Below are positions 3,348-17,125 of a stretch of DNA of 64,000 bases, one piece after another. Numbering within the stretch: the stretch's first letter is position 1; every line of letters starts with the position of its first letter. Source of the DNA: Clostridiales bacterium. GTDB taxonomy: Bacteria > Bacillota > Clostridia > Lachnospirales > Lachnospiraceae. The notes under the pieces are model-generated. The model saw only the letters and a program-made list of their open reading frames with translations, had not been told where the DNA came from and did not search any database. A program made the position numbers and the translations under genes. The stretch covers positions 3,932-67,931 of the forward strand of contig JAJQCD010000010.1 in NCBI GenBank assembly GCA_021202925.1, written 5' to 3'.

Positions 3348-3403
3348 AGAAGGGATTGATTTGGATGAACAGAAGGTCGAGCAGTGAACAGATGGAGGGG
3401 ATG

Positions 3404-3886
3404 ATGAAACGTCCGATCCCCAAAAAGAAGGTTGGTATCGTCAGAATTCAGATGGTAAAGGAAGACCGGTCCCTGTACGGGATGAGACGTTTTCAGGATG
3501 CAGTTGCGGCTGCAGAAATGGCAAGGGTGCTTTTCTCAATGGCTGACCGGGAAATCTTTCTGGTAGTAAGCCTGGATAGTAAGCTGGAACCAATGGCGGC
3601 CGAGATCGCAGCGGTCGGCGGTGTGGAATCATGCGCTGTAGATATGCGGAGTATTTTCAAGCACGCGATTTTGAATAATGCTTCGTATCTTATCTGTCTG
3701 CATAACCATCCATCGGGCGATCCGGCTCCAAGTTGGGAGGACAGAAAAATAACAGATCGGATCGCACAGGCAGGTCAGCTTTTAGGAATTCATCTGGTTG
3801 ACCATATTGTTGTAGGCGAGGGTCGATATTTCAGTTTTCGGGAGGAAGGTCTGCTTCACGAGAACAGTGAATACAGCGCAGCGTGA
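3404..3886 (+). CDS. radC: RadC-family JAB domain protein (start uncertain)
   Basis: HNHPSGDPAPSWEDRKIT and LVDHIVVG JAB motifs. Confidence 0.9.
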   Translation: MKRPIPKKKVGIVRIQMVKEDRSLYGMRRFQDAVAAAEMARVLFSMADREIFLVVSLDSKLEPMAAEIAAVGGVESCAVDMRSIFKHAILNNASYLICLHNHPSGDPAPSWEDRKITDRIAQAGQLLGIHLVDHIVVGEGRYFSFREEGLLHENSEYSAA

Positions 3887-4095
3887 CAGAGGACGATGTT
3901 GGGCCGGGAACCATGAGGAACCCGGCCTGATTATTGCCTGATAATAATATGGAAGAATCTGTTTATGGCAGGCTCTGTAGTTTGTCAAATCGTATGCAGA
4001 GATCTGTTTGTGACAGATCCTATCGTTATCGTCAGAGATGCAGAAAAAGATGAGGATACTGCATATTCTGCAGGTCTGGCTTAGGAGGAAAAGAT

Positions 4096-5025
4096 ATGTT
4101 TGATACGATAAGCACGGTCGGAATGAGTCGCGAGGAGTGGCTGCGCATTCGTAAGACCGGAATTGGAGGTTCTGATGCCGGAGCAATATGCGGCCTGAAT
4201 CGTTATCGGAGCGCAATCGACGTCTATCTGGATAAGATTTCAGAGAAGACAGAGGATGAGGACAATGAAGCCATGAGGATTGGAAGAGATCTGGAAGGAT
4301 ACGTGGCCGGACGGTTTATGGAAGCGACTGACTTAAAGGTGCGGCGTTCCAATCGGATGTACCGGAGTCGGGAACATCCGTTTATGCTGGCTGATGTAGA
4401 CCGGCTGGTTGTCGGAGAGGATGCCGGACTGGAGATCAAGACAGCCAGTCCGTTCGCGGAGGATCAGTGGAAGGACGGATCAGTGCCATTGAGTTATTTG
4501 TGTCAGGTGATGCATTATATGATCATCCTGGGGAAACGTTCCTGGTATCTGGCCGTTCTGATTATGGGAAGGGGATTCCAGTATCGTAAAATTGAATGGG
4601 ACGAAGAATTTGCCTCCGCACTGATTGCTGCAGAGGAAATATTCTGGAATAATCACGTAACACTACGCAAGATGCCAACTCCCGATGGTTCTGAGTCGTG
4701 TGATAAAATCTTAAATCATCTGTATCCTGCATCGGTGCAGCAGACGGCGATCCAGCTGACTGGTTTTGACGAGAAATTAAAACGTAGGGAAGAACTGGTC
4801 CATCAGTTAAAAGCGTTGGAACAGGAACAGCGGCAGATCGACCAGGAAATCAAGCTGTTTATGGGTGGAAATGAGGCTGCATATAATCAGGAGTATCGCA
4901 TCTCATGGAAAGAAGTGGTCAGTTCCAGACTGGATACCGGGCGATTAAAAGTAGAGCGTCCGGAGGTGTATCAGAATTATCTGCGTCAGAACAGCACCCG
5001 CAAATTTACGGTAAAGGCGGCCTGA
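4096..5025 (+). CDS. YqaJ-like viral recombinase (lambda exonuclease family)
   Basis: EEWLRIRKTGIGGSDAGAI, MLADVDRL, GLEIKTAS and YLCQVMHYM motifs. Confidence 0.92.
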   Translation: MFDTISTVGMSREEWLRIRKTGIGGSDAGAICGLNRYRSAIDVYLDKISEKTEDEDNEAMRIGRDLEGYVAGRFMEATDLKVRRSNRMYRSREHPFMLADVDRLVVGEDAGLEIKTASPFAEDQWKDGSVPLSYLCQVMHYMIILGKRSWYLAVLIMGRGFQYRKIEWDEEFASALIAAEEIFWNNHVTLRKMPTPDGSESCDKILNHLYPASVQQTAIQLTGFDEKLKRREELVHQLKALEQEQRQIDQEIKLFMGGNEAAYNQEYRISWKEVVSSRLDTGRLKVERPEVYQNYLRQNSTRKFTVKAA

Positions 5026-5140
5026 GATGAGTGAGATGGAATTGATGGAATGATGGAAGATTTGGTCTGGAGCAGATCGGAACAATAACACAGGATCATA
5101 CGCGGCGGACATGTCAGAATGACGAGGAGGAAGGACTATC

Positions 5141-5962
5141 ATGGCGGTCAGAGAGATGGTACGTCTGTTAAAGGCAGACGAGATTGAATGTCGAATTGCA
5201 ACGGTAAATGAGAGAGGGCTTAGTCTGCTGTTATTTAAAGATGCAAGAGTGGATCAGAAAATTCTGGATGAGACGTTCACGCCATTTGGCTGGAGGAGGA
5301 GCCATCAGTCTATTGATGGGAATTTGTACTGCACCGTGGAGGTCTGGGATGCAGAAAAGAGACAGTGGATTGGCAAACAGGACGTGGGCACTGGCAACAG
5401 TAGTTACGCGGAAAAAGAAAAGGGAACAGCATCCGACAGCTTTAAGCGCGCGTGTTTCAACTGGGGTATAGGCCGGGAACTTTATACCGCTCCCTTTATC
5501 TGGATTCCGGCAGAAAGGGTGACGATCGATCAGAGGGATGGAAGATTCGTGGTGAAAGATCGGTTCTCTGTCGCTGCGATTGATTATTCCGAAGACAGAG
5601 TGATTACAGCGCTGACTATTGTGAATGGGAACGGCGTCTGTGTTTACGTAATGCAGGAGAAGAAACAGAAGGAAAAACTGATGTCTCAGGAGATACAGAA
5701 ACCAAAGGATACAAAAGCTCGGAAGCAACGATCACAGCCCGGTTACTCGGAGAAAGCTCAGCCTGACAGAACGGTATCGCAACAGAACCCGGAGATCAGT
5801 CCGGGACAGGTGGCGGCACTAAACCGGGAACTGGAACGTACGGGAGTCCCATTGGAGACGGTGCTTGGCCGATATCAGCTTACTGGCATGAATGGGATGA
5901 CGGCTGATATTTATGAAAAGGCAATGGGATGCTTGCGGCGATCGAAGGACAGAGCGGCGTAA
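5141..5962 (+). CDS. Rad52/Sak-like single-strand annealing protein
   Basis: LLFKDARVDQKILDE, WIGKQDVG, EKEKGTASDSFKRACFNWGIGRELY match the phage Rad52/Sak-like annealase core; low-complexity linker in the C-terminal part. Confidence 0.8.
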   Translation: MAVREMVRLLKADEIECRIATVNERGLSLLLFKDARVDQKILDETFTPFGWRRSHQSIDGNLYCTVEVWDAEKRQWIGKQDVGTGNSSYAEKEKGTASDSFKRACFNWGIGRELYTAPFIWIPAERVTIDQRDGRFVVKDRFSVAAIDYSEDRVITALTIVNGNGVCVYVMQEKKQKEKLMSQEIQKPKDTKARKQRSQPGYSEKAQPDRTVSQQNPEISPGQVAALNRELERTGVPLETVLGRYQLTGMNGMTADIYEKAMGCLRRSKDRAA

Positions 5963-6001
5963 AATGTGAAGATAGAAACAACAGAACAGGAGTGCGGTGA
6001 A

Positions 6002-6931
6002 ATGATAACGGTGGAAGAATTTAGAGAAAAAGTAGTTAAGGAGCTGAATGCGATATATGGACGGGAATATGAGGCGTTTCCACTTGATCTGGCAAAAAAT
6101 AACGGTGTGAGGCGCTGTGGAATATCTGTGAAGAGAAAGGACGCTCTTGCCTCGCCGGTCGTCTATCTGGAAGGATATTATAAAGATTACCAGGATGGAA
6201 TGGAGATGGATGAGATTATTCTTATTATCCGGAGTCTGTTAGTGGAGACAGTACCTTCAAGGGAAATCGAGAGACAGGTAGCAACGCTGAATGATTTTGA
6301 AACGGTCCGGGAGTATCTGCAGTGCCGCCTGATCAATTATTCTGCAAATGAAGATACGTTACGAAATCAGGTGTTCCGGAGAGTATGTGACTTGGCGCTT
6401 GTGTTGGAAATCGTGATTCACAGTGATGAAATGGGCTCCATGACCATGCGGGTACAGAAGAAAATGACAGAAGATTGGGGCATGTCCGATGATGAACTGC
6501 TGGGTCAGGCATTGGAAAATGGAAAGAGGAAGAATCCGGCCCGGTTTTTCCGCGTGGAAAGCTTATTAAAAAGTCTGGTTACAGGAACGTTGGATGAACC
6601 GGAAACAGGTGCGGCACAGATGGAAACAGAAATGGAACCGGACCTCGATCTGTATGTCCTGACGGTGAATAAAGGAATTCATGGAGCGGTTGCCATGATG
6701 TATCCTGGGTGCTTGGAAAAGATCGCGGATGAGTTGGGTAGCGATCTGGTGATTTTGCCGTCCAGTATCCATGAAACATTGATCTTCTCCCGTACAAAAA
6801 GGGACGATTGGAAGAGTCTTCGTCAGATGGTTTATACCGTTAATCGGCAACATGTGGAAGAAGAGGAACGATTGTCCGATCAGGTATATGTGTTCTGCAG
6901 GATCAGTGGGACATTGGCGCTTGCAGCGTAG
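6002..6931 (+). CDS. DUF5688 family protein
   Basis: KNNGVRRCGISV, SPVVYLEGYY, LYVLT, GAVAMMYPG, LVILPSSIHETLI and LSDQVY motifs typical of this Clostridia MGE family. Confidence 0.8.
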   Translation: MITVEEFREKVVKELNAIYGREYEAFPLDLAKNNGVRRCGISVKRKDALASPVVYLEGYYKDYQDGMEMDEIILIIRSLLVETVPSREIERQVATLNDFETVREYLQCRLINYSANEDTLRNQVFRRVCDLALVLEIVIHSDEMGSMTMRVQKKMTEDWGMSDDELLGQALENGKRKNPARFFRVESLLKSLVTGTLDEPETGAAQMETEMEPDLDLYVLTVNKGIHGAVAMMYPGCLEKIADELGSDLVILPSSIHETLIFSRTKRDDWKSLRQMVYTVNRQHVEEEERLSDQVYVFCRISGTLALAA

Positions 6932-6942
6932 GAGGAAAAGAA

Positions 6943-7248
6943 GTGAGCATACGAAAAGAAAAAGAACTGCTTCAGATAGCGTTGGAAGAACATCTGAGTC
7001 AGATTTTAAAACAGGCGAAAGAACAGGACCGTGAAGACGAACGGATTCAGATCGAAGCGATTATGGAGAAGATGGATTCGGAGGAGCAGACTGTCCTGGC
7101 AGACTATATGAACCGGACAGATGACCGGGAGGCAGATGTTGCACGAAAGGCTTATGTTGGCGGTTTGCTGGACGGCGTGAGAATCGCGGGCATTATTTGG
7201 CTGGAGGCACTGCGAGGACAGTGTGAATGGGAGAAAACCCTGGAATAA
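6943..7248 (+). CDS. Hypothetical protein
   Basis: GTG start with AGGAGG RBS, in the same operon. Confidence 0.7.
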   Translation: MSIRKEKELLQIALEEHLSQILKQAKEQDREDERIQIEAIMEKMDSEEQTVLADYMNRTDDREADVARKAYVGGLLDGVRIAGIIWLEALRGQCEWEKTLE

Positions 7249-7361
7249 CGGTTATGGTTTACCGGACAGTCAGGAGTGGCTGTCCGGCATATATGGACGT
7301 GGGGACAATAGGCATGATTCATTTTGCCTGGATGTAGTGAAAAAAAGAAAGGAGAAGCTAT

Positions 7362-7628
7362 ATGGTCAGGAAATACACATTAAGTCAGGAAACGGTGGAG
7401 GAGCTTGAGACATTTTCTGTAGATTTTGAGCAGCTGGGCAATCTGATTGATCTTCTGGATCAGTATGTGCAGCAGAATGTTCTGAATGGTGATCAGGCAA
7501 TACTGGAAAGCAAGGACAGGACAGCGAGTCTGATTATGACCGTTGCGGATATCGTGCGTAAGTGCAGGAGTGAACTGCTGGCTGTTTTTGACCAGATCGT
7601 GCCGACGGATCACTCAGAGGCAGAGTAA
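7362..7628 (+). CDS. Hypothetical protein
   Basis: ATG with AAAGGAG RBS; 88-aa helical ORF. Confidence 0.7.
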   Translation: MVRKYTLSQETVEELETFSVDFEQLGNLIDLLDQYVQQNVLNGDQAILESKDRTASLIMTVADIVRKCRSELLAVFDQIVPTDHSEAE

Positions 7629-7650
7629 GTGAGATAACTGAGCAGATATA

Positions 7651-7745
7651 TCCATCTTTCCATCACTTCCATCGTATAAATAAGATAGATATAGAGTGGA
7701 ATAATATGATGTTTTAAAATGATGGAATGGATGGAAAGGTGGAAT
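7651..7745. repeat. Left ~95-bp inverted repeat flanking the serine recombinase
   Basis: 7716-7745 matches the reverse complement of 8540-8569 at 29/30; 7651-7662 matches the reverse complement of 8621-8632 at 12/12. Confidence 0.85.
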
Positions 7746-7792
7746 GAAAATTCGTACGATGAACAGATATCCTGTAGTAGGAGGATAATATA

Positions 7793-8410
7793 GTGACGGG
7801 GAGAGTTTTTGGCTACGCGAGAGTGAGTAGCAAAGAACAGAATCTGGATCGTCAGATTCTGGCATTACAGAAGTTTGTACCCGAAGAAAATATTCTGGTT
7901 GATAAAGCCAGTGGAAGAAATTTTGAACGTCAATCATATCAGGCCTTGAAAGGGGCTCTGGGATTACGCGAAGGAGATACGTTGATCATTACGTCTTTAG
8001 ATCGTTTGTCAAGAAATAAGAATGATATCAAGCAGGAGTTACAATGGTATAGAGATAAAGGCGTGCGCCTGAAAATTTTAGATTTGCCGACGTCGATGGT
8101 GGAAGTTCCAGATGGTCAGACATGGATTCTGGATATGATTCAGAACATTCTCATTGAAGTGCTGGCAAGTATAGCTGAGCAAGAACGATTGACTATTCGG
8201 AAACGTCAACGGGAGGGTATCGAAGCGGCGAAGAGGAAAGGAAAGCATCTTGGGCGCCCTAAGTTGGAACGGCCAAATAATTTTGAAGACATTTACAAAG
8301 AGTGGAGGCTGGGTCATGTAACTGCGGTGGGAGCTATGCGAGTGATGGGACTGACAAGCAGTTCCTTCTATCGTATGGTAAGATCATATGAATGTGAATC
8401 AAAAGGTTGA
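7793..8410 (+). CDS. Small serine recombinase (resolvase/invertase)
   Basis: GYARVSSKEQNLDRQ (catalytic Ser), SLDRLSRN, RQREGIEAAKRKGKHLGRP and a C-terminal HTH. Confidence 0.95.
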   Translation: MTGRVFGYARVSSKEQNLDRQILALQKFVPEENILVDKASGRNFERQSYQALKGALGLREGDTLIITSLDRLSRNKNDIKQELQWYRDKGVRLKILDLPTSMVEVPDGQTWILDMIQNILIEVLASIAEQERLTIRKRQREGIEAAKRKGKHLGRPKLERPNNFEDIYKEWRLGHVTAVGAMRVMGLTSSSFYRMVRSYECESKG

Positions 8411-8683: not shown

Positions 8684-10135
8684 TCATTCCGATGCGCCCT
8701 TGGTACTCATGACTATCAGATTGAAGATGTAGTCCTTTGCTTCAGCGAGGTAGCCTTCATTGTGATAAGAGAGTACAGGAATGTTGCAACTCTTTAAGTC
8801 TTTGGTATAATTGTCATGAATCTTTTCAATAGCTTCCTTCAAATCACGACAATAGGTTGTACCCTGTCGAACGGATTTTCGATTTTTTGCCTGGTCGTCG
8901 GACGAGAGTTTAATCATTTTCTTGATGTCTTCAAGCTTCTTGACGAGTGGAGCGTAGGATTTTTCTGTACATTTTGAAAAATTATCTACGAGCTCGTTCT
9001 TTTTTGCCTGGTTAATGAGCAGTCCTCCTGATGTGTGTGCGTGTTGAATAGCTGATTCTTTAAGAAGTTTGTTAAAACAGGATCGAAAAGAACTTCCTGC
9101 TGCATCAATCAGGTTTTGAATGGAAGAGATTCGGACTGTCCATTCTTTAAGGAAGGAATCCGGATTGTCGATTGCCAGTTCAAATGGTGAATCGACAATA
9201 TGGTGCGTACACAAGGCTTCATTTAAGTGGGTTAAGGCTTCGTTTGCTGCCTGATTGAGTCGGGATGAATAATCCTGGATAAAGTGAACTTGCAGGTCAG
9301 TAATCCAGGGTTCATCGTGAGGATACAGTATATTCACTGAGGCAACAGAGGAATCCTTGGCTCGTGTTACTTCGTATAGTCTGTCAGAATATTTTCCCAG
9401 TAGGTCAGTGAGAATGACATAATCGGACGGCACATTAAGAAGTCGGTTCGTAAGCGCTCTTACGGAATCTTTGATACATTCTGCCTGATCATCTGTTGTC
9501 GCATAAGAAGAGCAAATCTGCTCCAGTTTGAGAAAATAGGAACGTCCAAGGTTCTTAACCATCCAGGAATGGTAGGTTTCTGAAAAATCCATCAATTCTA
9601 TTCCTTCGATGGCAATCTTTGAAGCAACCGTGTTTGCAAGCTCATCGACGGAATGGTAAAGTTCTGTGACTGAGCGAATATCTCCTTTTACCAGTCTGTC
9701 AGCAGATAAAATCATAGGTAAGAGATAGGGAAGAAAGGCATAGGGGACCTCCCATTGGAATGTAGTATTTTTCTGTTGCTCCAAATTACAGTTGAGAATG
9801 AATTTCCCTTCATCATAAAGAGAGTCATATTGCCCTTCTTGAATTGTCTCTTCCTTTTCGGAATAAGGAAGTTGCAGTTTCAGACACTTCCGAGAAGGAT
9901 CGGACAAATAATTATATAACAATTCGTAAGTGGAGAATATTTCGTCTGACAATTTCAAACCTTTATGCAGATTGAAATAGAAAGCGGGGTTTGAATGTCC
10001 GAGTGAAGCAATAAACATAAGTTTCTCGAATGAATCAAATTGTTTTTTCGCAGTCTTCTGATCATATCTGTCAGTGACGCTGTTGATAAAATCGTAAAAA
10101 GCGGTTTTCGTTGTGATCCTGTCTTGGTTTGTCAT
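8684..10135 (-). CDS. Orphan hypothetical protein, 482 aa
   Basis: Long ORF; GGAGG RBS before ATG 10135; no family recognised. Confidence 0.8.
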   Translation of the reverse strand: MTNQDRITTKTAFYDFINSVTDRYDQKTAKKQFDSFEKLMFIASLGHSNPAFYFNLHKGLKLSDEIFSTYELLYNYLSDPSRKCLKLQLPYSEKEETIQEGQYDSLYDEGKFILNCNLEQQKNTTFQWEVPYAFLPYLLPMILSADRLVKGDIRSVTELYHSVDELANTVASKIAIEGIELMDFSETYHSWMVKNLGRSYFLKLEQICSSYATTDDQAECIKDSVRALTNRLLNVPSDYVILTDLLGKYSDRLYEVTRAKDSSVASVNILYPHDEPWITDLQVHFIQDYSSRLNQAANEALTHLNEALCTHHIVDSPFELAIDNPDSFLKEWTVRISSIQNLIDAAGSSFRSCFNKLLKESAIQHAHTSGGLLINQAKKNELVDNFSKCTEKSYAPLVKKLEDIKKMIKLSSDDQAKNRKSVRQGTTYCRDLKEAIEKIHDNYTKDLKSCNIPVLSYHNEGYLAEAKDYIFNLIVMSTKGASE

Positions 10136-10166
10136 TTTTTGATTCCTCCATATATATAAAATAAAT

Positions 10167-10195
10167 ATTATACAAAATTTAATATGATTTGTCAA
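10167..10195 (-). promoter_or_regulatory. Consensus sigma-A promoter for the 482-aa orphan
   Basis: Minus strand TTGACA (10195-10190), 17-bp spacer, TATAAT (10172-10167). Confidence 0.8.
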
Positions 10196-10485
10196 TAACC
10201 AAAATTCTGGTTGAAAAAAATTGGCTGTTCCAGTGGCAGGGGTGTTGCGATAGGATAAGGGCGTAACAAAACAATGGATGACATCTTCAAGCCGAAGACA
10301 TAGGAATAGTACAATGACGGAATTGGAAAAGGCAAAGAGACAGTCATCTTGCAGGCAGGAAATTCATCTTGAAGCTTACTTAATCACTGACGGCGAACTC
10401 AAGATTACGGATTTCTTCTGGCGGAACTGAGTTGAGCTTTAGGATGACCTGCAACCGCTGATTGGCGGGGAAAGGGGTATGAACC

Positions 10486-12639
10486 TTGAAAACTAAAGAC
10501 GTGGGAACAAACGAAATTGCAGTAAATGTGGCGCAGACGAAACTGATGAAGCCCTTCCACAAGGAGAGTCAACCTTTGAAGCAGAGTCCTATTTATGATT
10601 GGCCTCCAAGTGAGAAGATCTGCCCAATTTATCCATGGGATTCAGGTCAGAAGGCAAATCCCATTGTTAATGCTGATGAACTATCAGGCAATTACCATGA
10701 CGATCCGTTTGAAGGTATGGAATCTGACCGATTTCGATCTAAGCTGGATGCTCATGGAGAGACAGAGACAGAAGCTTCTCAGGAAGAAGTGGCTCTGTCA
10801 TGTGTGTCGGAAGGTGAAATGGCGGAGGTCGTTGATGTGGTGAGCACTCCTGTTTATCCGGAATTAATTCCAAGTTATCAGGCACCAACATCGTATTCGA
10901 ACACATTGGCCGTCTTTAATCAATCGGAAACGAGGATTTATGGATCCCCCAAACAACCTGACGATGAAGATGAGAGAGGTGGCGAAAGCTTCGTCGCAAA
11001 TTACAAACTTGAACCGCTTCGCATGGAACAGGTGATTAATTGGCGTGGTGACGTCGATTATGAAAATTGTTTGATTCGGGTGCGAATTCGGATAACACTA
11101 AGATCTCGCGAAATCTGTCAGGAATTTACGATATTTTGGAAAGAGATCGAAAGTCTGGCACAGGTTGTTGCAAGGCGTTTCCCTATGGCTCGGGCGAGGA
11201 AGAAATTCTATTCGCAAATCGAAATGGAATTTCGTGAAAGCCTGGAATGTATTGCAACCATTAACTGCTACTGTGATCATGGGTGGCAGCTAATCGCTGG
11301 AAAACGCATGTACGTCCATCAGACGGCGAAGGGGATCCTGGGGATAATTACCACGACGCAGAATCTTCCAGCAACTTCTGGCGTTGGCATCCAGGAATGC
11401 TGTGGTATCTGGGAAGCGTCACGGTCGTTATATCGAGTATCCGGCACTTCGGCAATTTTGAGTGTGTCAGCGTTCCTTGGGGTCATGTATCGGATTTTTG
11501 ATGAGGCGGGCCATGCGCCACGTTTCTTACTGTTTCTGACAGGCAAGACAGGATCCTTCAAGACCGCAATCGGCAAAGTGTTATTCACGCAAGTCGAGGA
11601 GGAGCGATTCAGGGAGCAACCGAGGCGATTGGATTCGGATACTTTGACTTCGCTGGAACGGAGCATCGTCACCTGCGGGCGCGACACAACGAGGCTGATT
11701 GATGATTTTTCGCCGGCTCTGAATAGACAGAAGAAGGCGACGCTGGAAAACGCACTTGAGATGATCACCCGGATGGTTGGTGATGGGAGTTCGCGGAGTC
11801 GTTCGAACGGAAGTCTTGAGGATAGACGAGGAGAAGGTGTTCGAGGGTTCGTAGTCGTTACTGGCGAGCTTCGCGGCAAGATTCTTTCATCGAATCTCAG
11901 GTGTCTTTATCTGACGATCGAGAAGGAGCACGTCAATTTAACACATCTAACATGGCTGCAGGAGAACAACGGAATGTATTGCGCTTTGATTCAGCATTTT
12001 ATCAATTATTTGTCGGATAATTGGGAGGGGATCGTTTCTTTTGTCCGAGAAAATTTCGATATCATGCGAAAAAAAGCGAGCAATATTTTACACACTGGTA
12101 GACTGGCGGATGCTCTTGCGATTCTGTGGTTGGCAACAGATATTCTGGCGGCTTTCTTTGAACGATGTGGTGAGACAGGGAGAGGAAATCTGTTCGAGCA
12201 GATGAAACGGGATATGATTTCTGTTTTTCTCGCCAGTGAGGCAATGGCGTATGAGGAAGATCCGACCGTCTCGTATATGTGTGCTCTTGAAACGCTGCTT
12301 GAGAATCAGGAACTGAATCTGAAAACTGGCCGATTTGGAGAAGAGGATCTGGAGAAGCTGGACGGCTTTGAGGCGGATGAATGCCTTTATCTGATGCCGT
12401 TACGCGTGTATCTGAAGGTGAAGAGCTGGATTCAGAAGGGCGGAGGAAGCTTTACACTGAGCGAAAAGGAGATCGTGACGGCTCTGGGTCAAGAGGGGTA
12501 TTTGGTTCCATCCTCAAATGGAAAAGAAAAGCGTACTTTTTATGCGAGAATTTTGATCGGTAAAAACCGCGTGAATTTTCTTCGAATACCACGATCTAAG
12601 TTGAGTGAGTTTGCGAGGACTGAGCCAGATTTTTTCTGA
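10486..12639 (+). CDS. DUF927/Cch-like AAA+ replicative helicase candidate
   Basis: Walker A GKTGSFKT, Walker B RLIDD, VVVTGE and SSNLRCL; preceded by HGWQ; located upstream of xis-int. No primase domain seen. Confidence 0.7.
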   Translation: MKTKDVGTNEIAVNVAQTKLMKPFHKESQPLKQSPIYDWPPSEKICPIYPWDSGQKANPIVNADELSGNYHDDPFEGMESDRFRSKLDAHGETETEASQEEVALSCVSEGEMAEVVDVVSTPVYPELIPSYQAPTSYSNTLAVFNQSETRIYGSPKQPDDEDERGGESFVANYKLEPLRMEQVINWRGDVDYENCLIRVRIRITLRSREICQEFTIFWKEIESLAQVVARRFPMARARKKFYSQIEMEFRESLECIATINCYCDHGWQLIAGKRMYVHQTAKGILGIITTTQNLPATSGVGIQECCGIWEASRSLYRVSGTSAILSVSAFLGVMYRIFDEAGHAPRFLLFLTGKTGSFKTAIGKVLFTQVEEERFREQPRRLDSDTLTSLERSIVTCGRDTTRLIDDFSPALNRQKKATLENALEMITRMVGDGSSRSRSNGSLEDRRGEGVRGFVVVTGELRGKILSSNLRCLYLTIEKEHVNLTHLTWLQENNGMYCALIQHFINYLSDNWEGIVSFVRENFDIMRKKASNILHTGRLADALAILWLATDILAAFFERCGETGRGNLFEQMKRDMISVFLASEAMAYEEDPTVSYMCALETLLENQELNLKTGRFGEEDLEKLDGFEADECLYLMPLRVYLKVKSWIQKGGGSFTLSEKEIVTALGQEGYLVPSSNGKEKRTFYARILIGKNRVNFLRIPRSKLSEFARTEPDFF

Positions 12640-12664
12640 CATTTCAGAAACGATACATCCTTTG

Positions 12665-12691
12665 TCGGCATATTTTAATGTGGTATGCCGA
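12665..12691 (+). other. Stem-loop just upstream of the intron-like RNA
   Basis: TCGGCATA (12665-72) pairs with TATGCCGA (12684-91); ATGTGGTATGC occurs twice (12678-88, 12691-701). Confidence 0.6.
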
Positions 12692-12697
12692 TGTGGT

Positions 12698-12917
12698 ATG
12701 CGCCGGGCATGGCTCAGTTCTAACTGGTGAAAGTCCAGTTATGGGTAACTTACCGTCCATGTAGTTAAACGCAAGGCGGCAATCCCGTTGTCAGTGACAG
12801 TGACGAAAGTAAATCAGATACTGTGAGGATGGATTAATTACTATGGGCTTGGAAGTATGAAGGTCTTTATACACAATGCAACGGGAGAGGCGAGACATTA
12901 GCCTCCCTCTACCCTAT
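12698..12917 (+). ncRNA. Miniature ORF-less group IIC intron-derived RNA
   Basis: 5' ATGCGCCGGGCATGG, hairpin TAACTGG-TGAAAGT-CCAGTTA, AACGCAAGG, stem GTAGTTAA/TTAATTAC, and a 3' domain VI-like stem GGGAGAGG/CCTCT-A-CCC ending in TAT. Domain Id, DII-IV and canonical DV are absent. Confidence 0.65.
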
Positions 12918-12937
12918 TTTTGGAGGGAGGTGATATC

Positions 12938-13129
12938 ATGCAGAAACAAAGCATTCCGCTGACAGAAAAACGGCTGTTATCCGTTCCCGAGTTTCAGGCT
13001 TATGCGAGTATTGGCCGGAACAACGCATTTCGGTTGATCCGTCAAGCTGATTGCGAGGTGCGTATCGGACGCAGGGTCTTTGCGGATCGCGTTCGGTTCG
13101 ACGCCTGGTGTAGCGCACAACACGGATGA
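12938..13129 (+). CDS. xis: Excisionase-like DNA-binding protein
   Basis: 63 aa, RLLSVPEFQAYASIGRNNAFRLI...VRIGRRVFADR; GGAGGGAGG RBS; directly upstream of the integrase. Confidence 0.8.
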   Translation: MQKQSIPLTEKRLLSVPEFQAYASIGRNNAFRLIRQADCEVRIGRRVFADRVRFDAWCSAQHG

Positions 13130-13201
13130 AATGACATAGACAACGGAGGGGGATGGAGCGACCATCCCTCTTATTGAAATATTAGAAAGAAGGAATTATC
13201 A

Positions 13202-14356
13202 ATGACAACAAAAGATATAAAAAAGCTTCCGAAAGGAATCACGCTTCGATCAGATGGTTACTATTTAGGACGGGTATCCTACTTTGGGGAAAGATATTCT
13301 CTGTATGACAGAGATCTGAAAACACTTCAAAGGCGGTTGAATGACTTGCGTTACGAACTGGAGCACGGGCTATATGCGAAAAAATCCCAGCTTACGATTG
13401 ACGACTGGTTCCGAACCTGGATTAGAGAATATAAATCAATGACCGTCAAGCAGGGGACGGTTGGCGTATACGAGGATACGTATCGTGCATATATCAAAGA
13501 TGCTTTGGGCAGGAAGAAGTTAAAGGATCTGAGGCCGGAACAGATTCAGGCTCTCTATAATAAGCTGAATCTTGACGGCTATTCGCACAGTACGATTGAA
13601 CTGGTGTCCGTGGTCCTCGGAGGTCTGTACAAACAGGCTTACAAAAACCAGCTGATTCAGAAGAATCCCGTTCCGTTGGCAACACTTCCGAAAGCGGTCG
13701 ATACTGTGAGGCAACGTGTTCTGACGGCAGAGGAACAGGAAATATTCTTACAGATTGCCAGAAAGCGTAAATACAGTCTGGCTTATGAGCTGGCGTTGTC
13801 GACGGGAATGCGAAGTGGCGAGGTTCGTGGTCTGCGTTGGGAAGATATTGATTTTGACAAGAGGCTAATCCATGTAACCGGTACATTGGTACAGAATCGA
13901 TATGGTTTTTACCGCGATCTGCCAAAGACGAAGAGTAGCCTTCGGGATATTCCGATGTTAGACAATGTGTATCAGTTGCTCGAAAAGTGGCGGGAAGAAC
14001 AGTCGGAGCGAAGGAATATGCTTGGCGCAGACTGGCGAGCAACAGAAGAATTTAAGGATCTGGTGGTCGCGACAGACATGGGTGCGCCGTTAGGTAAGAG
14101 TTATCTTAATAAGGGCATTAAGACGATCATCAAGCATATTGAGTCGGAGACAGAGAAACCATTTGAGTACATCACGTTTCATGGCCTGAGACATACTTTC
14201 GCGACCAGATGTATCGAAAATGGAATGGAACCTCAGGTATTGAAAGCGATTATGGGACATTCTAAACTGTCAATGACGATGGATCTGTATGCACATGTAT
14301 TGCCAGATGCAAAGTTAAAGGAAATGGAAAAAATCGCTGGGCTGTTTGAAAAATAA
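13202..14356 (+). CDS. int: Tyrosine integrase
   Basis: STGMRSGE (catalytic R), FHGLRHTFATR, MGHS...MDLYAH; N-terminal arm-binding and SAM-like regions. Confidence 0.95.
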   Translation: MTTKDIKKLPKGITLRSDGYYLGRVSYFGERYSLYDRDLKTLQRRLNDLRYELEHGLYAKKSQLTIDDWFRTWIREYKSMTVKQGTVGVYEDTYRAYIKDALGRKKLKDLRPEQIQALYNKLNLDGYSHSTIELVSVVLGGLYKQAYKNQLIQKNPVPLATLPKAVDTVRQRVLTAEEQEIFLQIARKRKYSLAYELALSTGMRSGEVRGLRWEDIDFDKRLIHVTGTLVQNRYGFYRDLPKTKSSLRDIPMLDNVYQLLEKWREEQSERRNMLGADWRATEEFKDLVVATDMGAPLGKSYLNKGIKTIIKHIESETEKPFEYITFHGLRHTFATRCIENGMEPQVLKAIMGHSKLSMTMDLYAHVLPDAKLKEMEKIAGLFEK

Positions 14357-14484
14357 GAATGGAACATGCGCAGAGGTTGGTAAAACACTGGATGATAACT
14401 GTCAAAAGTAAAGGATGGCAGAGCAGAGGAGAAGGTAAGTGTTTCCTCTACTTTGCCATTTTAAGTGTGAAAAGAGTTTCATAT

Positions 14485-14916
14485 TCACGGAGATTGCACG
14501 CCAGGATCATCTTGGCTCTTTGACAGTCTCTTTTCCACATAATTTGATACGCCGTCAAAAAATAAATGTGCCTGACTGATCTGATCTTCAACGTCAACCT
14601 TTGATATGACATAATAATCATCATAATCAGATTCTGTTCTGACTTCAAAGGCTTTGGTTAGAATCTTGGAATACTCTTTTTCAAAGATTCCAGACCGGAC
14701 ATAGTTTTTCTGGAAATAAGCCATCACACCTGCGTGTTTAGAAAAATCAATTCCGTCTAATGCAAGTATACTTCTAATGCAGTGAAAAATACTATAATAG
14801 GATCGATTGGCAGCACTGCAATAGTCTCCTGAATTTAAAAGGATTTTGGCTGATTCGAGACATTGCGCCGATTTTTCCAGGCGATATTTGCATAAGGCTA
14901 TCTTCCTATCATCCAT
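14485..14916 (-). CDS. HEPN domain protein, partner of the MNT
   Basis: AANRSYYSIFH, SKHAGV and RTESDY; overlaps the MNT stop codon. Confidence 0.9.
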   Translation of the reverse strand: MDDRKIALCKYRLEKSAQCLESAKILLNSGDYCSAANRSYYSIFHCIRSILALDGIDFSKHAGVMAYFQKNYVRSGIFEKEYSKILTKAFEVRTESDYDDYYVISKVDVEDQISQAHLFFDGVSNYVEKRLSKSQDDPGVQSP

Positions 14917-15262
14917 AGATTGCTACCCCTTCTTTCACTACATTTTGATAGAACGGAAGGAAATCCTGATTTTCCTCAAAGTGTTTCCGATCTCTTAATA
15001 TAATTGACACGAAGATTCCTTCATCAAGAGAAATGTCGCTGGCCATTTCAGATGTCCTGTCGCGCAGCTTCCTGATTTCGTTCTGGTCACAGTCTAGCAA
15101 TATCATGATATCAATATCAGATTCGTCGGTATGATCCCCTCTGGCATAGGAGCCATACAGAATAATCCGATCAAGTTGGTTCCCATAAATTTTTCTGGAT
15201 TCTTCTTTTATTCTTCCCAATACGCTCTGCAATTCAGCATTGTTACATTCGTGATTCTCCAT
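14909..15262 (-). CDS. Minimal nucleotidyltransferase (MNT)
   Basis: LYGSYARGDHTDESDIDIM motif (GSxxxG..DxD). Confidence 0.92.
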   Translation of the reverse strand: MENHECNNAELQSVLGRIKEESRKIYGNQLDRIILYGSYARGDHTDESDIDIMILLDCDQNEIRKLRDRTSEMASDISLDEGIFVSIILRDRKHFEENQDFLPFYQNVVKEGVAIYG

Positions 15263-15837: not shown

Positions 15838-15982
15838 CATTTCCCGCTCACTTTTGTGAAGTTTTTTTAGACTCAACATCTGACTGGATGTTCAATCCCG
15901 ACAGCTTAATAATCTCCGGCAGCACCTGGTAGATGGAGAAGGTATTGAATTCGTCCAGCCATTCCTCAGGCAAATCAGGAAC
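15838..15982 (-). pseudogene. Fragment of a siphophage tail-assembly chaperone gene
   Basis: VPDLPEEWLDEFNTFSIYQVLPEIIKLSGLNIQSDVESKK followed by an A7 tract and a shifted frame KLHKSEREM; resembles Clostridia phage TAC genes as recalled from memory. Confidence 0.6.
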
Positions 15983-16059
15983 CTTGCCTGGTAATCAGCA
16001 CGATATGGATGTCTTTTGAGGTCGCAATTTGCGACCTCAAACATTATCAGAACTATTAC

Positions 16060-16395
16060 TGAGCAATCAGAACCGGCTTTGATAATAAACACAAAATTCG
16101 TTGTATCCAGATGGCTCGATATCAGATAATCCGCTTTTATCATTGTGGTAAATGGATACATACGGGGCATATAGGAAAAGAACGAAAAATCTTTTTCGAT
16201 AATATCCTTTAAACGAGTCAAGGCTTCAAGACGGGGTTTTACGAGATTCTCGTACTGTTCACCTTTAGTGATTTGCTCGAATGTAATTTTATGGTTAAGG
16301 ATTCGATCCACGGTTTTACGCGGATTGTACCTCGGCAAGGATAAATCCCGTAAATATTGAAATCCTGCAAGATGAGGAAAATCCTCCAATCTGAA
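16060..16395 (-). pseudogene. Truncated PBECR4-like nuclease gene
   Basis: FRLEDFPHLAGFQYLRDL and FTTMIKADYLI motifs; in-frame TGA at 16398-16396 and no N-terminus; the C-terminus runs into unrelated sequence. Confidence 0.6.
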
Positions 16396-17125
16396 TCAGT
16401 ACCACCGGCTTAGCCGGTGGTTTGATTTTCGCCCTATAAGGGCTCGTTCCCGGCGCAAGGGTCTAAAGACCCGCTGAGTAGTTCGCCAGCCGCAACATCA
16501 GTTACTTGCTAAGCCCCCTGGGCTCACTTTTTATTGCTTTTCATTACCGGCTCACCCGTAAACGGGTCAATATACTCTTTTAAAGACATCTGATCATATT
16601 CCAAATCTTCTTTCAGCTGATTTCGAATATACTCTTCAATCTTTTTTGCATTTTTCCCTACAGTATCCACATAATAGCCTCTGCACCAGAAATGCCTGTT
16701 TCCATACTTATATTTAAGGTTTGCATGTCGCTCAAATATCATAAGTGTACTTTTACCCTTTAAATACCCCACAAATTCCGATACACTCATCTTAGGCGGA
16801 ATCTCTACCAACATATGCACATGATCTGGGCATATCTCCGCTTCGATTATGTTTACTTCTTTGCGCTTACATAGCATACTTAAAATATTGGCAATATCCT
16901 GCTTCAACTCACCATATATTATTTTTCTTCTAAATTTAGGTGCAAAGACAATATGGTACTTACAATTCCACGTCGTATGTGATAAAGTATTCTTGTCCAT
17001 TCGGACGACCTCCTTTGATTAATAAAACGGTTGGCGAACCTTTTTTTATTATATCACTGGAGGTTTTTTACACATCGCTGAAGCTATCCCAACCACCCGC
17101 ATAGCAGGTGGTTTTTTTGTTCTCC
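16395..17125 (-). mobile_element. IS200/IS605-family element, tnpA only (ends approximate)
   Basis: Subterminal hairpins ACCACCGGCTTAGCCGGTGGT (16401-16421) and ACCACCCGCATAGCAGGTGGT (17093-17113) flank tnpA. Confidence 0.85.
16524..17000 (-). CDS. tnpA: IS200-like Y1 HUH transposase
   Basis: CKYHIVFAPKFRRK, PDHVHMLV (HUH), FWCRGYYVDTVG and EEYIRNQ (catalytic Tyr). Confidence 0.96.
   Translation of the reverse strand: MDKNTLSHTTWNCKYHIVFAPKFRRKIIYGELKQDIANILSMLCKRKEVNIIEAEICPDHVHMLVEIPPKMSVSEFVGYLKGKSTLMIFERHANLKYKYGNRHFWCRGYYVDTVGKNAKKIEEYIRNQLKEDLEYDQMSLKEYIDPFTGEPVMKSNKK

What the first reader, a model, noticed from the sequence alone, without database searches (positions are those of the whole stretch)
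12883..12940. Two mutually exclusive hairpins gate the excisionase ribosome-binding site
Seen: CCTCCCTC (12902-09) is perfectly complementary to GAGGGAGG (12923-30), the xis Shine-Dalgarno before ATG 12938. The same pyrimidine tract can instead pair with the upstream GGGAGAGG (12883-90), the domain VI-like stem, which would free the RBS. A T5 run (12917-21) follows that stem. Inference: this is a translational or attenuation switch coupling the fold of the intron-like RNA to Xis output.
Basis: partly seen in the sequence, partly recalled or inferred. Interest (0 to 1): 0.7.

Follow-up and report, generated by a model that had tools for sequence, protein, structure and literature searches.

The report
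Dead intron stub masks excisionase start
The two competing hairpins are real, but one is simply the last stem (domain VI) of a dead, gutted group IIC intron that by coincidence matches the strong ribosome-binding site of the neighbouring excisionase gene; it may dampen that gene, and nothing shows it is an evolved switch.

Summary
Observation confirmed. Every motif is at the stated coordinates. The CCUCCCUC/GAGGGAGG pairing extends to 10 contiguous bp, and to 19 bp including the AUG.

Window ~12696-12917 is a ~220-nt internally deleted relic of a terminator-targeting group IIC intron. It keeps the first ~84 nt, a maturase-coding scrap with a stop codon, and domain VI with the 3' end. It lacks domain V, the reverse transcriptase and most of domains I-IV, so there is no intron fold to couple to Xis.

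The pyrimidine tract is the invariant 3' strand of domain VI in all 17 copies found in 10 genomes. Only this copy has a 3' flank that captures the tract.

The xis Shine-Dalgarno core (GGGAGGUGA) is shared with the closest relative (87% Xis), which has no relic. That relative's start region would pair with the relic just as well, so the match predates the insertion and did not evolve for it. Eight distinct relic-free leaders from xis relatives were read, and SD occlusion is not a family trait.

As the sequence stands, the fold is one-sided: the SD is >99% paired. A relic-specific G-to-A change at 12895 weakens domain VI by ~6.6 kcal/mol and causes this.

Most likely this is an accidental, constitutive translational damper. 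An exapted switch is not excluded (~12%). No transcript data could be obtained. Another first-stage note of this scan, on this same stretch, also calls it a stripped IIC intron.

The parts
10486..12639 (+). 717-aa ORF upstream of the leader. It sits where relatives carry a DUF5906/Pox_D5 primase-helicase, and it has no family hit itself.
   Evidence: relatives' gene
12664..12692 (+). 11-bp terminator-like hairpin 3 nt upstream of the relic's 5' end. This is the stem-loop motif that group IIC introns insert behind.
   Evidence: Fold; equivalent hairpins precede full-length copies; IIC habit described in PMC1702495
12696..12779 (+). Relic block A: the first ~84 nt of the intron. The 5' end has decayed from GUGUGCC to GUAUGCGCC.
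   Evidence: 90% identity to the end of own contig C23; 76-78% to nt 1-81 of full-length copies L115-L117; junction alignment
12768..12871 (+). Relic block B: a fragment of the maturase (GIIM) coding region of the intron-encoded protein, with an in-frame TGA.
   Evidence: 50% identity to IEP residues 303-347, one stop
12879..12917 (+). Relic block C: domain VI and the intron 3' end (..CCCUAU). The branch-point-type bulged A is at 12911. Domain V, which should precede it, is missing.
   Evidence: 95-96% identity to the ends of own contigs C25 and C36; alignment A2; energies
12883..12914 (+). Domain VI hairpin in the canonical register (-16.5 kcal/mol). A12895 breaks a G-C pair that intact copies keep.
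   Evidence: upper-stem covariation among lineages visible
12890..12941 (+). SD-occluding hairpin: 12902-11 pairs with 12921-30 (10 bp), plus 12890-12900 with 12931-41. Total -23.7 kcal/mol. It covers the SD and the AUG.
12917..12921 (+). T5 run: the last intron base plus four 3'-exon T's.
   Evidence: The first flank base is T at 13 of 17 sites; three or more T's occur at 5 of 17 sites.
12922..12934 (+). xis Shine-Dalgarno GGAGGGAGGUGAU. The core GGGAGGTGA is shared with the relic-free closest relative.
12938..13129 (+). 63-aa Tn916-Xis-like excisionase gene
   Evidence: profile vs 1Y6U, E = 5e-4
13202..14356 (+). Tyrosine integrase

Best explanation
An intact group IIC intron once inserted just behind the terminator-like hairpin of the upstream helicase-like gene, 4 nt upstream of the xis Shine-Dalgarno. 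It then lost domain V, most of domains I-IV and its reverse transcriptase through two internal deletions, leaving a ~220-nt dead stub whose last element is domain VI.

The 3' strand of domain VI (CUCCCUCUACCCUAU, invariant in the lineage) contains CCUCC, like the 16S anti-SD (general knowledge; the 16S 3' end is not in this assembly). It therefore pairs with the pre-existing strong xis SD.

An uncompensated G-to-A change at 12895 weakened domain VI. The equilibrium fold now occludes the xis SD and AUG in a ~19-bp hairpin. The predicted effect is a constitutive reduction of Xis translation on any transcript that starts upstream of about 12900. It is not a signal-responsive switch.

Shown: the origin, anatomy, uniqueness and predicted energetics. 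Inferred: that occlusion actually lowers Xis in vivo.
For: Origin of the relic:
- Its ends match intron ends at three own-genome contig ends.
- It matches full-length 1.65-1.9 kb copies in other genera. Those copies score RF02001 at 110-116 bits and RF00029 at 41-43 bits, and carry an RVT_1+GIIM protein.
- The full copies lie right after terminator hairpins, as described for IIC introns (PMC1702495).

The relic is dead:
- There is no D5/D6 family hit at E <= 1, and only 21.3 bits (gathering score 49) for a D1-D4 model.
- D5 is replaced in alignment A2.
- The IEP is reduced to 45 residues with a stop codon.

Energetics:
- D6 scores -16.5; the extended SD-occluding hairpin scores -23.7.
- P(SD paired) is >0.99.
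- Restoring G12895 gives D6 -23.1 and P(occluded) = 0.10.

Coincidence rather than design:
- The pyrimidine tract is identical at 17 sites in 10 of 401 genomes, and only this flank captures it.
- The closest relative (87% Xis), which has no relic, carries the same SD core. Its start region, fused in silico to the relic, pairs with P = 1.00.
- Eight distinct leaders of xis relatives lack the relic.
Against: - The match is in the top ~1% of start regions of this genome. Pure chance is therefore somewhat uncomfortable, and retention of the relic could have been favoured.
- All energetics are nearest-neighbour predictions. Co-transcriptional folding forms D6 first, which could leave a kinetic window for initiation.
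The promoter, read-through and 3' ends are unknown.
Confidence: 0.62

Rival explanations
1. Exapted switch or lock. The dead intron's domain VI has been co-opted as the anti-SD arm of a regulatory element that controls Xis, and hence excision. D6 would act as anti-anti-SD, and perhaps as a terminator together with the U-run. The state would be set by transcription or translation kinetics, for example ribosomes on the 14-codon sORF 12857-12901 opening the 5' arm.
For: - The complementarity is in the top 0.8-1.4% of 867 start regions.
- With an intact D6 the two states are nearly isoenergetic (-25.1 vs -23.7), and a single relic-specific substitution tips the balance.
- In the canonical register, D6 ends 2 nt before UAUUUUU.
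- An sORF ends at 12901, inside the 5' arm (read).
Against: - There is no conservation. Eight distinct leaders of relatives lack the relic, and SD occlusion is not a family trait.
- The complementarity predates the insertion.
- The present ensemble is >99% one state.
- No sensor or known RNA family is present.
- The terminator scan is negative.
- The sORF lies in pseudogene debris and has a weak SD.
Confidence: 0.12
2. No functional consequence. The hairpin exists on paper only. Xis output would be set elsewhere (transcription, or a promoter close to the SD), or the element no longer excises, so the relic is neutral junk.
For: - The relic is decaying: a mutated 5' end, an uncompensated D6 mismatch and a stop codon in the IEP scrap.
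- Dead IIC stubs behind terminators are common. An earlier scan note, e1-1369393, describes one on other DNA.
- D6 folds first during transcription and may persist long enough for ribosome loading.
Against: - A predicted -23.7 kcal/mol helix that buries both the SD and the AUG would, from general knowledge of SD-sequestering hairpins, be expected to lower initiation.
- There is no good promoter between the anti-SD arm and the SD. The best candidate is an 8/12 match by eye, whose start would fall inside the SD. The scan found only a 9/12 site at 12794-12822, upstream of both arms.
Confidence: 0.22

Closest known systems
Bacterial group IIC (class C) introns, e.g. B.h.I1 of Bacillus halodurans (PMC1702495)
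   Same: - The 5' end is of the GUGUGCC(A/G)GGCAUG type.
- It sits directly after a terminator-type stem-loop.
- Domain VI has a bulged A 7 nt from the 3' end.
- Relatives are 1.65-1.9 kb with an RT+maturase protein and no endonuclease domain.
   Different: The window copy is a ~220-nt stub. It has no domain V, no D1-D4 core and no ORF, and its 5' end is mutated. It cannot splice or move.
SD-sequestering leader hairpins with an alternative partner (translational attenuators such as the ermC leader, riboswitch expression platforms, RNA thermometers)
   Same: An anti-SD strand is shared between two mutually exclusive helices, one of which buries the SD and the start codon.
   Different: There is no sensor, no conserved leader peptide and no conservation among homologous leaders. 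The ensemble is one-sided. The anti-SD strand is inherited mobile-element debris.
Ll.LtrB domain IVa / LtrA autoregulation (Singh et al. 2002, as summarised in PMC3851717)
   Same: A group II intron RNA structure controls access to a ribosome-binding site.
   Different: In Ll.LtrB it is the intron's own ORF, the structure is domain IVa, and the intron-encoded protein is the effector. Here a host-element gene outside the intron is affected and no protein partner exists.
Tn916 Xis-Int module
   Same: A small HTH excisionase lies immediately upstream of a tyrosine integrase at the element's end. The profile matches Tn916 Xis (1Y6U, E = 5e-4).
   Different: It is only distantly related. The window protein alone is below Pfam's cut-off. 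The element carries a primase-helicase-like gene rather than Tn916 conjugation genes in the part examined.

Membership tests
Functional group II intron ribozyme | Domain V catalytic hairpin | tested here: not met
   There is no RF00029 hit at E <= 1 in 10000-15000, whereas full copies score 41-43 bits. In alignment A2 the D5 columns are replaced by unrelated sequence.
Functional group II intron ribozyme | Domains I-IV scaffold reaching the Rfam gathering score | tested here: not met
   The only hit is 21.3 bits for RF02003 (gathering score 49). The region that scores as RF02001 in full copies is deleted.
Functional group II intron ribozyme | 5' GUGYG | tested here: not met
   The window has GUAUGCGCC where intact copies have GUGUGCC.
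Functional group II intron ribozyme | Domain VI with a bulged A about 7-8 nt from the 3' end | tested here: met
   A12911 is bulged between 3-bp and 5-bp helices, 6 nt before the end at 12917.
Functional group II intron ribozyme | Intron-encoded RT/maturase | tested here: not met
   Only a 45-residue maturase-like fragment with a TGA remains.
Descent from the group IIC lineage | Homology of both ends to full-length copies that encode RT+X without an endonuclease domain | tested here: met
Descent from the group IIC lineage | Location just downstream of a terminator-type inverted repeat | tested here: met
   The hairpin at 12664-12692 lies 3 nt before the relic. The same holds for four full copies. 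The criterion is from PMC1702495.
Translational switch / attenuator | Two mutually exclusive helices sharing one strand, one of which buries the SD | tested here: met
Translational switch / attenuator | Both states appreciably populated or kinetically selectable | tested here: inconclusive
   At equilibrium P(occluded) is >0.99. D6 forms first in growing transcripts. Kinetics were not computable here.
Translational switch / attenuator | Conservation or covariation in homologous leaders | tested here: not met
   No relic in the eight distinct relic-free leaders read. SD pairing probability ranges from 0.13 to 0.82.
Translational switch / attenuator | A sensor (aptamer, leader peptide, protein site) | tested here: not met
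   No Rfam family is present. There is only an unconserved 14-codon sORF in pseudogene debris.
Intrinsic terminator (D6 + U5) | G+C-rich hairpin immediately followed by a U-run | tested here: inconclusive
   The consensus scan found none on the + strand. In the canonical register the interrupted stem ends at 12914 and UAUUUUU follows. No 3'-end data are available.
Tn916-Xis-like excisionase | Sequence match to the family | tested here: met
   The profile of 6 homologues matches 1Y6U at E = 5e-4 over residues 1-59. All 6 match PF09035, with a best E of 2.6e-6, but the window protein alone scores 12.8 bits against a cut-off of 22.9.
Tn916-Xis-like excisionase | Gene directly upstream of a tyrosine integrase | tested here: met

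The most novel reading that the evidence does not exclude
The domain VI stub of a dead group IIC intron has been retained because it locks the excisionase start site and so stabilises the integrated element. A single G-to-A change (12895) would have converted a nearly isoenergetic D6/anti-SD pair into the locked state. That would be an example of intron debris exapted as a translational regulator of another mobile element.
Probability: 0.12. Interest if true: 0.5.

Novelty: new member of a known kind. Interest (0 to 1): 0.25.

Why it matters
As an accident, it matters little beyond annotation. It shows that a striking pair of alternative hairpins can arise when a pyrimidine-rich intron stem lands next to a canonical SD, and that comparison with relic-free relatives can expose this.

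If the occlusion does lower Xis, it would be a small, concrete case of one mobile element's debris changing the excision propensity of another. The test would be simple: a reporter fusion with a single-base reversion at 12895.

Tried and rejected
- The Rfam scan of 10000-15000 at E <= 1 found no riboswitch, leader or other family, only a sub-threshold group II fragment hit.
- The promoter/terminator scan found no + strand terminator at D6 and only a weak 9/12 promoter-like site at 12794-12822.
- A distant BLAST against the plasmid collection gave no match.
- An exact-pattern scan of metagenome contigs for the SD/xis junction gave no match. A profile scan gave three loci, all without the relic.
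- An exact-protein look-up of Xis found only one contig, 100% identical across the 361-nt leader compared (window 12600-12960), so it is uninformative.
- I considered that domain VI/SD pairing might be a general property of this intron lineage. I rejected this because 16 of 16 other sites show P <= 0.08.
- I considered that the SD evolved to match the relic after insertion. I rejected this because the relic-free closest relative's start region pairs as well or better.
- I considered that the stub is a mobile mini-element. I found no second copy of this architecture in the own genome or in 400 family genomes. One differently deleted stub exists in G373.
- The 16S 3' end is not in the assembly, so the anti-SD resemblance rests on general knowledge.

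Full report
**Observation**

- GGGAGAGG at 12883-90
- CCTCCCTC at 12902-09
- T5 at 12917-21
- GAGGGAGG at 12923-30
- ATG at 12938

The ATG is the real start. Five homologues begin at the aligned residue and a canonical GGAGGTGAT precedes it.

Folding 12870-12960 gives the SD-occluding hairpin as both MFE and centroid (-27.3 kcal/mol, z = -3.06, 0 of 200 shuffles fold as well). The same hairpin survives in the 306-nt leader fold. It has 10 contiguous bp (12902-11 with 12921-30) and continues, with interruptions, to 12890-12900 with 12931-41. It therefore buries the AUG too.

**What the upstream stem is**

In the window's own genome (window = contig C10:3932-67931):
- Window 12877-12922 matches the ends of contigs C25 and C36 at 95-96%. 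There it is preceded by the 3' half of a domain V hairpin.
- Window 12699-12751 matches the end of contig C23 at 91%. There it is preceded by a G+C-rich terminator hairpin.

The same two pieces recur 1.65-1.9 kb apart in other genera of the family. Those full copies score RF02001 at 110-116 bits and RF00029 at 41-43 bits. They encode a 434-aa RVT_1+GIIM protein. They lie immediately after terminator hairpins. This is the defining habit of group IIC introns, and the 5' end resembles B.h.I1 (PMC1702495).

The window element maps to three blocks of such an intron:
- nt 1 to about 84
- about 100 nt from inside the maturase coding region; the own-genome search finds only this 45-residue, stop-containing scrap of the protein
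- domain VI plus the 3' end

Domain V, the RF02001 region and the ORF are gone. The 5' GUGUG has become GUAUGCG. It is a dead stub. An 11-bp hairpin at 12664-92 lies 3 nt upstream and is the likely original target motif.

**Domain VI register**

The canonical register scores -16.5. It consists of:
- GGG with CCC
- bulged A12911
- AGAGG with CCUCU
- GAG with CUC

The upper stem covaries among lineages (GAGGC/GCCUC, GAGA/UCUC and GAGAC/GUCUC), which supports this register. The window's A12895 breaks a pair that intact copies keep.

**Energetics**

| Structure | kcal/mol |
|---|---|
| D6, canonical register | -16.5 |
| Core anti-SD helix | -16.9 |
| Extended SD-occluding hairpin | -23.7 |

P(SD paired) is above 0.99. 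Restoring G at 12895 gives D6 -23.1 and P(occluded) = 0.10. Restoring both relic-specific changes gives 0.39-0.43. With an intact D6 the pair would therefore have been nearly bistable. In the present sequence it is one-sided. In growing transcripts D6 forms first, and the occluding hairpin takes over once about 12941 is made.

**Design or coincidence**

1. The pyrimidine tract is intron-intrinsic. CTCCCTCTACCCTAT occurs at 17 distinct sites in 10 of 401 family genomes. Only the window's 3' flank captures it (P = 1.00 against <= 0.08 for the other 16).
2. The xis family does not share the arrangement. The relatives found by integrase, by Xis profile and by protein search give eight distinct relic-free leaders (48-87% Xis identity). 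They have 25-112-nt spacers, no relic and varied SDs. Their own leaders give P(SD paired) of 0.13-0.82, so occlusion is not a family trait.
3. The closest relative (87% Xis) has the same HEPN-family gene after int, a different upstream helicase gene and no relic. It has the start region ..AAAGGGAGGTGAATGTC-GTG. It shares the GGGAGGTGA core with the window. When this region is fused in silico to the relic it is captured with P = 1.00 (-26.2 kcal/mol), and with P = 0.86 even against an intact D6. The complementarity therefore belongs to the ancestral xis start region and did not evolve in response to the intron.
4. As a chance event it is still unusual. Only 0.8-1.4% of 867 GGAGG-type start regions of this genome would be captured as strongly. 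Five more distant xis start regions give P of 0.00-0.49.

**The T-run**

The intron ends at ..CCCUAU (12917). The next base is T at 13 of 17 sites, and three or more T's follow at only 5 of 17. The run is therefore mostly 3'-exon sequence. It plausibly belonged to the U-tract of the upstream hairpin before the insertion, which is an inference.

In the canonical register, D6 ends 2 nt before UAUUUUU, so a terminator-like effect cannot be excluded. The consensus scan does not call one and no 3'-end data could be obtained.

**Mechanism proposed**

Any transcript that starts upstream of about 12900 is predicted to carry the xis SD and AUG in a stable hairpin whose 5' arm is the loop and 3' strand of the dead domain VI. 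The likely sources are read-through from the helicase-like gene, or the weak promoter-like site at 12794-12822. The expected result is constitutively low Xis translation.

No sensor, no balanced alternative and no conservation are evident, so I do not call it a switch. Co-option remains possible (about 12%), as does no in vivo effect at all (about 22%).

**Comparison with known systems**

The RNA is a relic of a IIC intron and fails the membership test for a functional group II intron. Its behaviour resembles SD-sequestering leaders without meeting their conservation or sensor criteria. The nearest intron-related precedent is domain IVa/LtrA control of the intron's own RBS (summarised in PMC3851717), which differs in target and effector. 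Two full-text searches found no description of a domain VI relic masking a neighbouring gene's SD. That is not proof of absence.

**Verdict**

This is an ordinary kind of object (a dead IIC stub) in an unusually suggestive position. Interest is low to moderate.

Noticed in passing
own genome contig ends C23:80392-80444, C25:79043-79101, C36:56691-56745: Three contigs of the window's genome end a few dozen bases inside group IIC intron copies. No intact intron-encoded protein is assembled anywhere in the genome. The full-length copies are therefore collapsed or dropped repeats, and their number is unknown.
   Followed up: partly
own genome C13:126352-126385 (L005): A second, even smaller relic. 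It has only a domain VI-like hairpin (GTAGAGG..CCTCTAC, with the branch A now paired) and the intron 3' end. An AAGGGGA SD-like motif follows directly, and then an ATG.
   Followed up: no
L124 (G373:C28:1804-1818, minus strand): Another genus has an independently deleted mini-stub. About 60 nt of the intron 5' end is joined directly to the 3' half of domain VI. Internal-deletion derivatives that keep both ends therefore recur in this lineage.
   Followed up: no
window 10486-12639 (+): A 717-aa ORF has no Pfam, NCBIfam or PHROG hit. It carries a Walker-A-like GKTGSFKT motif, and its C-terminal DNA is similar to the gene that precedes xis in Otoolea muris (L036). In other relatives the position is held by a DUF5906/Pox_D5-type primase-helicase.
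   Followed up: partly
window 12680-12702 (+): A direct repeat, TGTGGTATGC, occurs twice. It straddles the 3' arm of the upstream hairpin and the decayed 5' end of the relic. This may be a junction duplication.
   Followed up: no
window 12857-12901 (+): A 14-codon sORF (ATG..TAG) ends inside the 5' arm of the SD-occluding hairpin. It has a weak SD and lies in intron pseudogene debris. It is probably accidental, but it is the only candidate for translational opening of the hairpin.
   Followed up: no
window 14485-15262 (-): A HEPN plus nucleotidyltransferase (MNT-type) gene pair lies immediately after the integrase. A HEPN-family gene also follows int in the sister element (L140-L143). It is either cargo at the element's edge or a shared integration site.
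   Followed up: no
window 3356-8410 and 15892-17000: The element context includes RadC-JAB, a YqaJ-like exonuclease, a Rad52-like protein, DUF5688 and a serine recombinase (7793-8410). Beyond int there are a PBECR4 nuclease-like ORF and an IS200-type Y1 transposase.
   Followed up: no
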